From the IMG/VR virus record IMGVR_UViG_2740892235_000003: a stretch of 16,130 nucleotides of DNA; one strand, written 5' to 3'. The translations under genes were made by a program, and so were the position numbers. A model generated the notes under the pieces. The model was given only the letters and a program-made list of their open reading frames with translations. It made no database searches and was not told the origin of the DNA. Position 1 is the stretch's first letter; each line of letters starts with the position of its first letter. Origin of the DNA: a virus. Taxonomy: Duplodnaviria; Heunggongvirae; Uroviricota; Caudoviricetes. This document shows positions 4,123-7,916 of the stretch, one piece after another.

Positions 4123-5793
4123 TGGCAATTATTGATGATGTGATAGGCGTGTTTTCCCCCGGGTGGAAAGCAGCCAGACTGCGTTCAAGGGCGTTAATCA
4201 TGGCCTATGAGGCGGTGAAACCGACCCGGACACATAAAGCCCGGCGGGAAAATCGCTCTGCCGATCAGCTCAGTAAATACGGTGCGGTTTCCCTGCGGGA
4301 GCAGGCCCGTTTTCTTGATATCAATCATGACCTGGTGATTGGTGTGTTTGACAAGCTGGAAGAGCGGGTGATTGGTGCCAGGGGAATTATTGTGGAGCCT
4401 CAGCCATTACGAAAAAACGGGGAAATGGCGGCAGAGCTGGCTGCGGATATCAGCCGGTTGTGGGCTGAATGGTCCGTGAGTCCGGATGTGACAGGGCAGT
4501 ATACCCGTCCCGTGCTTGAACGTTTACTGCTGCGGACCTGGCTGCGGGATGGTGAAGTGTTTGCGCAGATGGTCAGTGGTGCGGGAAACGGNNNNNNNNN
4601 NTGAGCTGGCTGCGGATATCCGCCGTTTGTGGGCTGAATGGTCCGTGAGTCCGGATGTGACAGGGCAGTATACCCGTCCTGTGCTTGAACGTTTACTGCT
4701 GCGGACCTGGCTGCGGGATGGTGAAGTGTTTGCGCAGATGGTCAGTGGTGCGGGAAACGGTCTGGAACGGACGGCGGGAGTGCCATTCTGGCTTGAGGCG
4801 ATGGAGCCGGATTTTGTTCCCATGCGCACTGATGAATCCGCCGGACTGAATCAGGGGGTTTTTCTTGATGAGTGGGGAAGACCGAAAAAATATCTGGTTT
4901 ATAAAAATTATCCGGTCAGCGGCCGGCAGAGTGATACGAAAGAAATCGCTGCCGGAAAAATGATCCACCTGAAGTTCACTCGTCGTCTGCACCAGACGCG
5001 AGGCTCATCCATGTTATCGGGGGTGCTGATGCGGATCAGTGCCCTTAAGGAGTATGAGGATGCGGAACTGACAGCGGCGCGTATTGCTGCGGCGCTGGGA
5101 CTGTATATCCGTAAAGGGGACGGGCAGGACTATGAAGATCCGGGGATCAAAGAAACCGAGCGGGAAGTCCATATCACCCCGGGTATTATTTATGACGATT
5201 TGCGCAAGGGCGAGGATATCGGCATGGTCAAATCTGACCGTCCCAATCCCAACCTTGAAACTTTCCGCAACGGCCAGTTGCGTGCTGTGGCCGCTGGTAG
5301 TCGTCTGAGTTTTTCCAGTGCGGCGCGTAACTATAACGGTACCTACAGCGCCCAGCGGCAGGAGTTGGTCGAGTCCACCGACGGGTATCTGATCCTGCAG
5401 GACTGTTTTATTGGCGCGGTAACCCGCCCTGTGTACCGGACATGGCTGAATATGGTGGTTGCGGCAGGTCTGCTGAAAATTCCGGCGGATGTGGAGATGA
5501 AAACGCTATATAACGCGACGTATTCCGGTCCGGTGATGCCGTGGATCGACCCGGTTAAGGAAGCTGAAGCCTGGAGAATTCAGATCCGGGGTGGTGCAGC
5601 GACAGAATCTGACTGGGTGCGTGCCGGCGGGCGCAATCCGGATGAGGTCAAACGTCGCCGCAAGGCTGAAATTGATGAAAACAGCAGACTGGGGCTGGTC
5701 TTTGATACTGACCCAGTCAACGACAAAGGAGGCAACAGTGCCGGAACTGAACGACAGTATCAGCGCGACACCGAAAGCCAGCATGAAGAATAA
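4122..5793 (+). CDS. B: Portal protein (gpB-like); frame interrupted by a scaffold join (N run 4592-4601 with unmerged overlap 4434-4591 / 4603-4760)
   Basis: ATG at 4122 overlaps the W stop (TAATG). About 500 aa once the duplicated block is removed. Position immediately after terminase and W and before the protease/capsid gene. The track ORFs 4122..4604 and 4516..5793 are the two halves. Confidence 0.8.
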
Positions 5794-7916
5794 ATCCTGG
5801 TTCAGGATGCAGGCTGGGGGGCCGGGTGACGCGGATATTTATATTTATGACGAGATTGGTTTCTGGGGAGTTACCGCGAAGCAGTTTGTCAGCGAACTGA
5901 ATGCACTGGGTGATATCACCCACATTAATCTCCATATCAATTCACCGGGTGGCGATGTCTTTGAAGGCATCGCNNNNNNNNNNTGCGGATATTTATATTT
6001 ATGACGAGATTGGTTTCTGGGGAGTTACCGCGAAGCAGTTTGTCAGAGAACTGAATGCACTGGGTGATATCACCCACATTAATCTCCATATCAATTCACC
6101 GGGTGGCGATGTCTTTGAAGGCATCGCCATTTTTAATGCCCTGAAAAATCAGGGGGCGACCATTACCGTGTATGTGGATGGCGTTGCCGCCTCGATGGCA
6201 TCTGTGATTGCGATGGCCGGTGATACGGTCATTATGCCGGAAAATGCCTTCATGATGATCCATAAGCCATGGGGATTCAGTGGCGGGGATGCTGAGGATA
6301 TGCGCAGTTATGCCGATTTGCTGGATAAAGTCGAATCGGTACTGTTGCCAGCCTATGCGCAGAAAACCGGAAAAACCACCGATGAAATTGCCGCCATGCT
6401 GGCGGATGAAACCTGGATGTCCGGTGCCGAATGTCTGGCACACGGATTTGCTGACCAGGTGACACCCGCTGTTGAGGCAATGGCATGTATTCAGTCAAAA
6501 CGTACAGAGGAATTTAAAAAGATGCCGGAATCCATCCGAAACATGATTACTCCGCCACGCAACAGTGCCCCGCGTGATACCACAGTGACAATCCCTGCAC
6601 CGGCGGTAACAGAACCATCACCGGTACCGGCAGTGTCTGATGAGGCGACCATTCGCGCCCGCGTTATGGCAGAACAGAAAGCCCGCATGTCAGGCATTAA
6701 CGATCTGTTTGCCATGTTCGGCGGTCGCTATCAGACGCTTCAGGCACAGTGCGTGGCTGATCCTGACTGTTCGCTGGAAATGGCCCGTGAACGTCTGCTG
6801 AATGAAATGGGCAAGGAGTCATCGCCGACCAACAAAAACACACCGGCCCATATTTATGCCGGAAACGGCAATTTTGTGGGAGACGGGATCCGCCAGGCGA
6901 TGCTGGCCCGTGCCGGATTTGAAAATGTCGAGAAGGATAACGCCTATAACGGGATGACCCTGCGTGAATGGGCTCGCATGTCACTGACGGAGCGCGGTAT
7001 TGGGGTGGCCAGTTATAACCCCATGCAGATGGTCGGGCTGGCGCTGACGCACAGCACCTCTGATTTTGGCAATATCCTGCTGGATGTGTCGAACAAGGGG
7101 CTGATCCAGGGCTGGGAGGAATCAGAAGAAACCTTCCAGAAGTGGACCCGTAAGGGACGCCTGTCAGACTTCAAAACAGCGTATCGCGTGGGGATGGGCG
7201 GTTTTGGTTCTCTGCGCCAGGTTCGTGAGGGGGCGGAGTATAAATACATCACCACCTCAGATCGCAAGGAGACCATTGCTCTGGCCACCTACGGGGAGAT
7301 TTTCTCCATCACCCGCCAGGCCATTATCAATGATGATCTGAATATGCTGGTGGACGTGCCGATGAAGATGGGGCGTGCGGCGAAGGCAACGATTGGTGAC
7401 CTGGTTTACAAGGTGCTGACGGATAACCCGAAACTGTCCGACGGTAAGGCGCTGTTCCATGCCGATCACAAAAATATTGCCACCGGGGGGATCTCCGTTT
7501 CCGGACTGGATGCGGCCCGTCAGATGATGCGCCTGCAGAAAGAAGGCGATCGCGCCCTGAATATCCGTCCGGCCTTTATGCTGGTACCGGTGGCACTGGA
7601 GACGGTGGCGAACCAGACCATCAAATCGGCCAGTGTGAAAGGGGCGGATGCAAACGCCGGTGTCATTAACCCCATCCAGAACTTTGCTGAGGTGATTGCG
7701 GAAGCGCGTCTTGATGCGGCAGATCCGAAAACCTGGTATCTGGCGGCGGCACAGGGCACTGACACCATTGAAGTGGCCTGGCTGGATGGTGTGGACACGC
7801 CATACATTGATCAGCAGGAAGGTTTCACCACTGACGGCATTGCCACAAAAATTCGTATTGATGCCGGTGTGGCACCACTTGACTGGCGCGGTCTGGTGCG
7901 TTCGTCGGTGGCCTGA
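5783..7916 (+). CDS. Prohead protease (ClpP/S14-like) - scaffold linker - major capsid protein fusion; contains a scaffold join (N run 5974-5983 with unmerged overlap 5831-5973 / 5985-6127)
   Basis: N-terminal domain has ClpP-like motifs (INLHINSPGGDVFEGIAIFNAL, GVAASMASVIAMAG, MMIHKPWG). Middle is a Pro/Ala-rich linker plus predicted helical region (EATIRARVMAEQKARMSG). C-terminal ~350 aa resembles an HK97-fold / Mu gpT-like major head subunit. Start at ATG 5783 (or 5807) overlaps the portal stop. The track ORFs 5591..6004 and 5901..7916 are parts of it. Confidence 0.75.

What the first reader, a model, noticed from the sequence alone, without database searches (positions are those of the whole stretch)
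5783..7916. Protease, scaffold and major capsid protein encoded as one polyprotein
Lambda uses separate C/Nu3/D/E genes. Here a ClpP-like protease domain (Ser-containing GVAASMAS motif and His-containing MMIHKPWG motif), a Pro-rich linker with helical scaffold-like segment, and an HK97-fold capsid domain lie in one ORF. This implies autoproteolytic head maturation. The head module is therefore not lambda-type, while terminase, W and the tail genes are strongly lambda-like, which makes the region a mosaic. Domain boundaries are blurred by the scaffold join at 5974-5983.
Basis: partly seen in the sequence, partly recalled or inferred. Interest (0 to 1): 0.4.

Follow-up and report, generated by a model that had tools for sequence, protein, structure and literature searches.

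The report
Fused protease-scaffold-capsid gene, Gifsy-2 type
This is an ordinary, already catalogued prophage gene in which the head-maturation protease, a scaffold segment and the major capsid protein are made as one protein, as in Salmonella phage Gifsy-2; about 38% of complete E. coli genomes carry a matching region.

Summary
Removing the assembly artefact at the N10 join (5831-5973 repeated at 5985-6127) leaves one uninterrupted ORF ending at 7916. It is 659 aa from ATG 5783, or more likely 674 aa from GTG 5738. It differs at one residue from a RefSeq protein named [quoted passage not shown].

- **Domains:** a ClpP-like protease (Ser86, His109, Glu158), a Pro-rich linker, a three-helix scaffold-like segment, and an HK97-fold capsid domain (pLDDT 85; Foldseek hits to HK97, Mu and D3 capsids).
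- **Family:** it scores 1004 bits against NCBIfam NF045540 (cut-off 475). It is 62% identical to the Gifsy-2 "tripartite capsid gene" product (Effantin 2010).
- **Spread:** the region matches in 2070 of 5426 complete E. coli genomes and in Stx phages.

So this is already known.

The whole packaging and head module, terminase and portal included, is Gifsy-2-type (41-67% identity) and only 21-24% identical to lambda. Only the tail genes are lambda-like (54-85%).

One new lead: a conserved in-frame ATG (6522) with a Shine-Dalgarno-like core under strong synonymous constraint. It suggests a nested scaffold-capsid product, as with lambda C/Nu3. This is untested.

The parts
5738..7916 (+). Fusion ORF: protease, scaffold and major capsid protein. 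It is 674 aa from GTG 5738 or 659 aa from ATG 5783. Read it with the artefactual segment 5831-5984 removed.
   Evidence: NF045540 scores 1003.9 bits against a cut-off of 475.
5831..5984 (.). Assembly artefact: a 143-nt duplicate of 5985-6127, the N10 run at 5974-5983, and one extra base (5984).
   Evidence: duplication with one mismatch; the complete genome has 2547 nt where the window has 2701.
5985..6464 (+). ClpP-like (S14-type) prohead protease domain, residues ~17-176. Ser86 is at 6192-6194, His109 at 6261-6263 and Glu158 at 6408-6410.
   Evidence: NF045542, 224.8 bits, cut-off 120. PDB ClpP matches at E=2.9e-18 with the triad positions aligned. S86, H109 and E158 are invariant in 34 sequences.
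6507..6524 (+). Candidate internal ribosome-binding site (GAGGA 6507-6511) and in-frame ATG 6522-6524 (Met196).
   Evidence: Met is conserved in 55 of 57 homologues. The SD core persists through amino-acid changes. This is the strongest synonymous constraint in the gene. The function is inferred, not shown.
6522..6641 (+). Pro-rich linker predicted to be disordered (residues 196-235).
   Evidence: (pLDDT 39-55) and the sequence itself.
6642..6818 (+). Three-helix scaffold-like domain (residues 236-294).
   Evidence: helices 41-64, 71-79 and 85-99 of the model, pLDDT 90-97. The scaffold role is inferred by analogy with the HK97 delta domain and the Gifsy-2 central domain.
6819..6872 (+). Low-confidence linker (residues 295-312) and probable maturation-cleavage zone. 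It lies just before the invariant NGN motif (310-312).
   Evidence: (pLDDT ~51-60). The cleavage site is inferred only.
6873..7913 (+). HK97-fold major capsid protein domain (residues 313-659).
   Evidence: Phage_capsid_4, E=8.6e-56; pLDDT mostly above 85; Foldseek probability 1.00 to the HK97, Mu, D3, TW1 and phiXacJX1 capsids and to encapsulins.
8004..8330 (+). Head decoration (cement) protein gene, 108 aa. It partners the capsid domain.
   Evidence: Phage_cement_2, E=7.8e-19; phrog_122, head decoration; 53% identity to the Gifsy-2 homologue.
4122..5793 (+). Portal gene, interrupted by the N10 join at 4592-4601 and its duplication. Its 3' end overlaps the start of the fusion ORF.
   Evidence: Phage_portal_2; 64% identity to the Gifsy-2 portal.

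Best explanation
This is the capsid gene of a Gifsy-2-type lambdoid prophage head module. It is a tripartite gene whose single product carries an N-terminal ClpP-like serine protease, a flexible Pro-rich linker with a small helical scaffold-like domain, and a C-terminal HK97-fold major capsid protein. The inferred mechanism is as follows. The capsid domains assemble on the portal into a procapsid, probably T=7, with the scaffold and protease parts facing inward. The protease domains (Ser86, His109, Glu158) then cut the precursor in the linker before the capsid domain, around residues 295-312, and degrade the internal parts. The shell expands during DNA packaging and is stabilised by the downstream cement protein. 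A likely refinement, also inferred, is that a conserved internal start at Met196 additionally produces a protease-less scaffold-capsid protein. Both forms could then co-assemble, as with the nested lambda C/Nu3, HSV-1 UL26/UL26.5 and HFTV1 gp17/gp17.5 genes.
For: Shown here. (1) There is one continuous ORF once the join artefact is removed, and it matches a RefSeq CDS apart from one residue. (2) It matches NF045540 'ClpP-like prohead protease/major capsid protein fusion protein' over its full length, 1003.9 bits against a cut-off of 475, and phrog_133 over its full length. (3) ClpP structures match at E=2.9e-18, with the catalytic Ser and His aligned and Glu158 in the place of the catalytic Asp; all three are invariant in 34 homologues. 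(4) An AF2 model of residues 196-659 has pLDDT 85.3, and its C-terminal ~350 residues hit HK97-fold capsids with probability 1.00. (5) It is 62% identical over its full length to the Gifsy-2 protein, with the same gene order: TerS, TerL, small adaptor, portal, fusion, cement protein. [quoted passage not shown] Gifsy-2 is listed as T=7 (PMC8814770) and as having a trimeric cement protein at the 3-fold axes (PMC8538268). For the nested start: Met196 is present in 55 of 57 homologues and each has a GGA/GGAG core 9-11 nt upstream although the residues vary (EE, ED, QE, KD, KE, GD). The codon at that position is G-ending in 53 of 54 sequences, against a mean of 43% across 44 comparable columns. Residues 181-201 show the lowest synonymous diversity in the gene. 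The two homologues that lack the Met also lack the SD core.
Against: There is no direct evidence from this element for expression, cleavage or assembly. The prophage may be defective, and the window is a patchwork of overlapping fragments that may come from several paralogous prophages. The cleavage site is guessed from a low-confidence linker. The full-length AF2 model was poor (pLDDT 41), so the protease fold rests on sequence matches only. Regarding the internal start: the upstream full-length start has a much stronger SD (-11.6 against -6.0 kcal/mol). The internal Met and SD are missing from the distant environmental fusion clade and from split-gene relatives. The homologues share ancestry, so the counts are not independent. 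I could not read the Gifsy-2 paper itself.
Confidence: 0.92

Rival explanations
1. The fusion is an assembly artefact. Protease and capsid are separate genes that were joined only by the scaffold join and duplication at 5974-5983.
For: The window contains seven N10 joins with duplicated flanks, and the join falls inside the protease domain.
Against: The join lies at residue ~16-64, far from the protease/capsid boundary at ~196-312. Complete genomes and phage genomes (E. coli 95-3322, phage 1720a-02, mEp043, Gifsy-2, JBD68) all have the same uninterrupted ORF. In a scan of one genome per species, 57 sequences (56 related loci plus the window) carry single ORFs of at least 640 codons.
Confidence: 0.01
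2. The gene makes only the full-length polyprotein, so every capsid subunit brings its own protease and scaffold. The conserved ATG and SD-like core at 6507-6524 then reflect protein-level constraint on the motif (E/Q/K)(E/D)(F/Y)xxMP, or a translational pause, rather than a second start.
For: The 5' start has a strong, conserved SD of -11.6 kcal/mol. A related protein motif, F/Y-(K/R)-N-x-P, is present at the same place in relatives without Met or SD. Distant fusions lack the internal Met, so the fusion can work without it.
Against: The constraint is on synonymous positions: GAG in all 38 sequences with Glu at that column, against at most 57% at the other Glu-majority columns listed, and AAG in all 6 Met-bearing Lys cases, against a gene-wide AAG share of about 45%. 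It also survives charge-reversing substitutions (E, Q, K), which protein-level selection does not explain. Met and SD are lost together in L058 and L064.
Confidence: 0.45
3. The ORF is a relic in a defective prophage and no longer builds capsids.
For: E. coli genomes carry up to 6 copies and many lambdoid prophages are defective. In VT1-Sakai the homologous region matches in two pieces with IS629 and a transposase annotated under it. The window fragments differ in their identity to the reference (96.3-100%).
Against: The ORF is intact, the catalytic residues are retained, and all flanking morphogenesis genes are intact where the sequence is readable. Sequences at least 98.8% identical occur in deposited Stx-converting phage genomes.
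Confidence: 0.1
4. The N-terminal domain is a cellular-type ATP-dependent ClpP subunit captured by the phage and works with host ClpX or ClpA, not as a prohead protease.
For: Many database records simply name the protein 'Clp protease ClpP'.
Against: It scores far below every ClpP equivalog cut-off (TIGR00493: 61.5 against 308.6). It exceeds the cut-off of the phage-specific NF045542 'head maturation protease, ClpP-related' (224.8 against 120). It sits between the portal and decoration genes and is covalently joined to a capsid protein.
Confidence: 0.01

Closest known systems
Salmonella phage Gifsy-2 tripartite capsid gene (STM1034.3n; Effantin et al. 2010, Virology 402:355); NCBIfam NF045540
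   Same: The domain order is the same (ClpP-like protease, central segment, capsid protein). Identity is 62% over the full length. The flanking genes are the same (TerS, TerL, small adaptor, portal, then fusion, then Phage_cement_2 decoration protein and a 93-99-aa protein).
   Different: A different host and a different tail module; here the tail is closer to lambda than to Gifsy-2. The linker is shorter. No experimental data exist for this copy.
Phage lambda head genes C/Nu3, D, E
   Same: The functional logic is the same: a ClpP/crotonase-superfamily serine protease, a scaffold, a capsid protein and a decoration protein, with a gpA-family terminase and a lambda-family portal. The candidate internal start would parallel the nested C/Nu3 pair.
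   Different: Lambda has separate genes, and its protease is annotated as an S49 family peptidase, not ClpP-like. BLASTP finds no similarity to C, Nu3, D or E, and only 21-24% identity for the portal and terminase.
Phage HK97 gp4 (S78 protease) and gp5 (delta domain plus capsid protein)
   Same: An HK97-fold capsid domain is preceded by a covalently attached helical scaffold-like segment that is presumably removed by the prohead protease.
   Different: The HK97 protease is a separate gene of a different fold. HK97 stabilises its shell by covalent chainmail (background knowledge), whereas this module encodes a cement protein.
NF045541 'prohead protease/major capsid protein fusion protein' (for example Rhodobacter phage RcDormio gp9; relatives carrying the PF04586 Peptidase_S78 domain)
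   Same: The scaffold and capsid portion is homologous from residue ~198 onward (418 bits, below that family's cut-off of 525).
   Different: The N-terminal protease domain is not ClpP-like; it is S78-type in P0246, P0249, P0250 and others. The same scaffold-capsid module has therefore been joined to two unrelated proteases.
Nested protease/scaffold genes: HSV-1 UL26/UL26.5 and Haloferax virus HFTV1 gp17/gp17.5
   Same: An in-frame internal start yields the assembly protein without the protease (bioRxiv 10.64898/2026.09.13.751334). The conserved ATG 6522 and its SD would be the equivalent here.
   Different: In those systems the nested product is the scaffold alone and the capsid protein is a separate gene. 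Here the nested product would be scaffold plus capsid. This is not demonstrated.

Membership tests
NF045540 ClpP-like prohead protease/major capsid protein fusion (Gifsy-2-type tripartite capsid gene) | Full-length match above the curated cut-off | tested here: met
   1003.9 bits against a cut-off of 475; residues 17-657 align to profile positions 2-651 of 652.
NF045540 ClpP-like prohead protease/major capsid protein fusion (Gifsy-2-type tripartite capsid gene) | N-terminal ClpP-like domain with catalytic Ser and His and an acidic third residue | tested here: met
   CLP_protease E=2e-36. NF045542 224.8 bits against 120. Ser86, His109 and Glu158 align with the ClpP Ser, His and Asp positions and are invariant in 34 sequences.
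NF045540 ClpP-like prohead protease/major capsid protein fusion (Gifsy-2-type tripartite capsid gene) | C-terminal HK97-fold major capsid domain | tested here: met
   Phage_capsid_4 E=8.6e-56. AF2 pLDDT 85.3. Foldseek probability 1.00 to HK97, Mu, D3 and other capsids.
NF045540 ClpP-like prohead protease/major capsid protein fusion (Gifsy-2-type tripartite capsid gene) | Protease and capsid domains in one uninterrupted reading frame | tested here: met
   Continuous once the 154-nt join artefact is collapsed. The same CDS is present in finished genomes.
NF045540 ClpP-like prohead protease/major capsid protein fusion (Gifsy-2-type tripartite capsid gene) | Head-module synteny: portal upstream, cement (decoration) protein downstream | tested here: met
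NF045540 ClpP-like prohead protease/major capsid protein fusion (Gifsy-2-type tripartite capsid gene) | Proteolytic removal of the protease and central domain, leaving a ~38-kDa mature capsid protein in a T=7 decorated shell | not testable with these tools
   Needs virion or procapsid protein analysis and cryo-EM. Known for Gifsy-2 only through citing papers.
Lambda-type head module (C/Nu3, D, E) | Separate S49 protease gene with nested Nu3, and separate D and E genes homologous to lambda's | tested here: not met
   BLASTP finds no hit to C, Nu3, D or E at E<=0.01. The protease is ClpP-like and is fused to the capsid protein.
Lambda-type head module (C/Nu3, D, E) | gpA-family large terminase and lambda-family portal | tested here: met
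   GpA_ATPase, GpA_nuclease and Phage_portal_2 match at E of 1e-80 or lower, but identity to lambda is only 24% and 21%.
HK97-type head module (separate S78 protease; delta-domain capsid protein with chainmail) | Separate Peptidase_S78 protease gene | tested here: not met
   No S78 match; the protease is ClpP-like and fused.
HK97-type head module (separate S78 protease; delta-domain capsid protein with chainmail) | Lys-Asn isopeptide crosslinking residues | not tested
   No residue-level structural superposition was made. The presence of a cement protein gene suggests non-covalent stabilisation.
Cellular ATP-dependent ClpP (TIGR00493 and related equivalogs) | Score above the equivalog cut-off | tested here: not met
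   61.5 bits against a cut-off of 308.6. All ClpP equivalog and subfamily models score far below their cut-offs.

The most novel reading that the evidence does not exclude
The tripartite gene may be a nested two-product gene. Besides the full-length protease-scaffold-capsid protein, a conserved internal start (SD GAGGA 6507-6511, ATG 6522, Met196) would make a protease-less scaffold-capsid protein resembling HK97 gp5. The ratio of protease-bearing to plain subunits would then be set by translation. This would extend the lambda C/Nu3, herpesvirus UL26/UL26.5 and HFTV1 gp17/gp17.5 nested strategy to a case where the nested product includes the capsid protein. The signal is restricted to the Enterobacterales, Pseudomonas, Pasteurellaceae and Shewanella clade of fusions. 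I could not read Effantin 2010, so I do not know whether this has already been reported for Gifsy-2.
Probability: 0.45. Interest if true: 0.45.

Novelty: already known. Interest (0 to 1): 0.15.

Why it matters
As a finding it mainly matters for annotation. Many records call this protein 'Clp protease ClpP', 'head maturation protease', 'Nu3' or 'scaffold protein', which hides the fact that it is the major capsid protein of a very common family of E. coli, Shigella and Salmonella prophages, including Stx-converting phages. It also shows that 'lambda-like' prophages of this type carry a Gifsy-2-type packaging and head module joined to a lambda-type tail. If the nested internal start is real, it would explain how a virus that fuses its protease to its coat protein still controls protease dosage. 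It would also add a bacterial example, with a new twist, to the nested protease/scaffold expression scheme shared by tailed phages, archaeal tailed viruses and herpesviruses.

Tried and rejected
- **Full-length AF2 model.** With a 34-sequence alignment it failed (mean pLDDT 41). I did not use it, and the protease fold therefore rests on sequence matches. I rebuilt the model for residues 196-659 with 139 more diverse sequences.
- **Gifsy-2 paper and Liu & Mushegian 2004.** Neither is held, so details such as the mature N-terminus come only from citing papers.
- **-1 frameshift site at 6513-6521.** I considered T_AAA_AAG read with the upstream SD, as in dnaX. I rejected it because the heptamer is not conserved in homologues.
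- **Split-gene relatives.** I checked whether the internal Met marks a former gene boundary. They carry a related protein motif there but no Met or SD. Their protease ORFs continue into their own scaffold-like tails, apart from one metagenomic contig (L088) split at exactly this motif.
- **Terminator scan.** The consensus scan did not find the hairpin plus U-run after the gene, although folding shows it.
- **Rfam.** No matches in the window.
- **CBASS escape preprint.** It concerns protease-scaffold fusions in other phages and is not relevant here.
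Full report
**Observation**

The window contains seven runs of 10 N. At the run inside the finding (5974-5983), the 143 nt before it (5831-5973) recur after it (5985-6127) with one mismatch. In raw coordinates the gene is therefore split between two frames: ORFs 5591..6004 and 5901..7916. Collapsing the repeat gives one 1980-nt ORF, 659 aa from ATG 5783, with no stop or frameshift. A megablast of 5400-8100 against complete E. coli genomes aligns the 2701-nt query to 2547 nt of the chromosome, so the 154 extra bases are an artefact. 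The CDS annotated there (WP_000792357.1, 659 aa) differs from my reconstruction only at residue 37, the mismatch between the two duplicate copies.

**What the protein is**

- Pfam finds CLP_protease (residues 31-176, E=2e-36) and Phage_capsid_4 (365-656, E=8.6e-56), plus a weak Mu-like_gpT match.
- NCBIfam NF045540, [quoted passage not shown], matches end to end at 1003.9 bits against a cut-off of 475. The phage-specific protease model NF045542 is also above its cut-off. All cellular ClpP models fall far below theirs.
- PHROG 133 matches over the full length.
- Sequence search of the PDB finds only ClpP structures, best E=2.9e-18. In that alignment GVAASMAS and MMIHKPWG lie on the ClpP Ser and His motifs, and Glu158 lies on the catalytic Asp. 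Ser86, His109 and Glu158 are invariant in a 34-sequence alignment spanning 56-95% identity.
- A full-length AlphaFold model was unusable (pLDDT 41).
- A model of residues 196-659, built from 139 sequences that include a distant environmental clade, was good (pLDDT 85.3, pTM 0.70). It shows a disordered Pro-rich linker (196-235), three confident helices (236-294), a low-confidence connector (295-312), and then a compact alpha/beta domain.
- Foldseek places that domain with HK97-fold capsid proteins and encapsulins at probability 1.00, including HK97, Mu, D3, TW1 and phiXacJX1.

**Is it known?**

Yes.

- The region matches in 2070 of 5426 complete E. coli genomes, with up to six places per genome. 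The listed near-identical copies carry the fusion-protein name.
- Copies at 98.8% identity or more sit in deposited phage genomes: 1720a-02, VT1-Sakai, several Stx2a and Stx2d phages, and ASU11. Copies at ~77% sit in mEp043, mEp460, cdtI, Ayreon and others.
- tblastn finds 82 phage records that cover at least 80% of the protein, including Pseudomonas phage JBD68 at 58%.
- Database searches returned thousands of fusion-length homologues in Enterobacterales and Pseudomonas.
- A scan of one genome per species found full-length relatives across Gammaproteobacteria, down to 35% identity.
- The prototype is Gifsy-2. [quoted passage not shown] 2010)" and that such heads are very different from lambda's (PMC12315714). 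Other papers list Gifsy-2 as T=7 and as having a trimeric cement protein at the 3-fold axes.
- The window protein is 62% identical to the Gifsy-2 protein over its whole length, and the neighbouring genes match in order and sequence.
- "Major capsid and protease fusion protein" is also a routine annotation term in actinobacteriophage genomes.

**The mosaic claim**

BLASTP of the clean gene set against lambda shows the tail genes Z to I at 54-85% identity. TerL is only 24% identical to gpA and the portal 21% to gpB. The small terminase, the W-position protein, the fusion protein, the decoration protein and the 93-aa protein give no hit. Against Gifsy-2 the same proteins score as follows:

| Protein | Identity to Gifsy-2 |
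|---|---|
| Small terminase | 42% |
| TerL | 67% |
| W-position protein | 53% |
| Portal | 64% |
| Fusion protein | 62% |
| Decoration protein | 53% |
| 93-aa protein | 39% |

At family level TerL and the portal are still gpA-type and lambda-portal-type. The W-position protein is a head-tail adaptor, phrog_118. So the region is a mosaic, but the junction lies between the head-completion genes and gpZ. The whole packaging and head block is Gifsy-2-type, not only the capsid gene.

**Start codon**

GTG 5738 lies in frame, 15 codons upstream of ATG 5783, and is preceded by AAGGAGG (-11.6 kcal/mol). This start and its SD are conserved in the Enterobacterales relatives. An ATG at the position of 5783 is absent from them. 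The database holds both 674- and 659-aa models. I take 5738 as the likely start.

**A lead beyond the finding: a possible internal start**

- Met196 (ATG 6522-6524) sits at the boundary between the protease and the linker. It is conserved in 55 of 57 full-length sequences (the window plus 56 homologues).
- In all 55, a GGA/GGAG/AGGA core lies 9-11 nt upstream, although the encoded residues vary: EE, ED, QE, KD, KE, GD, ME, IE.
- Predicted pairing to the anti-SD averages -6.2 kcal/mol there, against a gene-wide mean of -2.0. That places it in about the top 5% of positions in each gene.
- The codon supplying the first bases of the core is G-ending in 53 of 54 sequences. This is the top outlier among 44 comparable E/K/Q columns (next 79%, mean 43%).
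- Residues 181-201 have the lowest synonymous diversity in the whole gene. Lys188 is always AAA and Glu191 always GAG.
- The two homologues without the Met (L058, L064) also lack the core.
- The feature is clade-specific. Distant environmental fusions and split-gene relatives have V, I, P or A at this position and no SD.
- One metagenomic contig is split exactly here into a 184-aa ClpP gene and an overlapping 440-aa scaffold-capsid gene.
- Other relatives carry an unrelated S78 protease on the same scaffold-capsid module.

Together this points to a scaffold-capsid unit that can be expressed on its own. Nested in-frame starts that yield the assembly protein without the protease are established for lambda C/Nu3 and HSV-1, and were recently shown for HFTV1. 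The inference here is comparative only. The homologues are related to one another, and I could not check whether the Gifsy-2 paper already addresses it.

**Mechanism**

- Shown: the domain content, the catalytic residues, the fold, the synteny and the family membership.
- Inferred from the family and the literature: co-assembly on the portal with protease and scaffold facing inward; cleavage in the 295-312 connector just before the invariant NGN motif; degradation of the internal parts; expansion; and cement-protein binding.

**Verdict**

Interest is low, with a modest untested lead in the internal start.

Noticed in passing
window 2832-2841, 4592-4601, 5974-5983, 14132-14141, 14666-14675, 15526-15535, 15803-15812: The window is a chain of overlapping sequence fragments joined by N10, each join flanked by duplicated sequence (overlaps of about 143-161 nt at the first three joins). 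From 14132 to 16130 four short pieces map to overlapping parts of one ~1.1-kb stretch of the reference (L001 17445-18587). The fragments differ in identity to the reference (96.3-100%) and the duplicate copies differ at one base (C5893/A6047), so the pieces may come from different paralogous prophages. ORFs that cross the joins (TerL, portal, fusion, tail genes near the 3' end) are broken only by this artefact.
   Followed up: partly
window 5738-5740: The probable true start of the fusion ORF is GTG 5738 with AAGGAGG six nt upstream. It is conserved in Enterobacterales relatives. The ORF would then overlap the portal gene by 56 nt.
   Followed up: yes
window 6507-6524: An in-frame ATG (Met196) is preceded by a Shine-Dalgarno-like core under the strongest synonymous constraint in the gene, conserved in 55 of 57 sequences. 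It is a candidate nested start for a protease-less scaffold-capsid product.
   Followed up: yes
window 10825-10831: G_GGA_AAG lies in the zero frame near the end of the gpG-like ORF (10418-10849), followed by the gpT-like ORF. This is the canonical lambda G/GT -1 programmed frameshift site.
   Followed up: partly
window 7938-7987: The intergenic region between the capsid gene and the decoration gene folds into two small hairpins: GCCC-GAAA-GGGC followed by U7, and CAGCCCC-ACA-GGGGCUG. The mEp043 record annotates a rho-independent terminator at the equivalent place (L006 3491-3509). A terminator here could lower decoration and tail expression relative to the capsid protein. The fold z-score is only -1.8.
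   Followed up: partly
H2: AP000400.1 (VT1-Sakai) 23239-26483: In the Stx1 phage of O157 Sakai the homologous region matches in two pieces, with IS629, a transposase and separate 'scaffolding protein' and hypothetical-protein CDSs annotated under it. The capsid gene of that prophage therefore appears to be interrupted.
   Followed up: no
L088 1025-2862 (Logan SRR22387790 contig): A natural split version: a 184-aa ClpP-like gene and a 440-aa scaffold-capsid gene overlap by 40 nt in different frames, with the boundary at the same motif as Met196. It could be a real split gene, a frameshift error or a programmed frameshift.
   Followed up: no
P0246, P0249, P0250, P0296, P0350, P0353, P0356; L007 2158-4200 (RcDormio gp9): The same scaffold-capsid module is fused to a Peptidase_S78 (HK97-type) protease instead of a ClpP-like one in the listed proteins. 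RcDormio gp9 likewise has a non-ClpP N-terminal domain. Two unrelated prohead proteases have thus been joined to one capsid family.
   Followed up: partly
window 8323-8604: The 93-aa ORF after the decoration gene matches Pfam family 'Gifsy-2' (PF13856, described as 'ATP-binding sugar transporter from pro-phage'). RefSeq calls it 'DNA breaking-rejoining protein' and PHROGs calls it 'minor tail protein'. The names conflict. By position it is probably a head-completion or connector protein.
   Followed up: no
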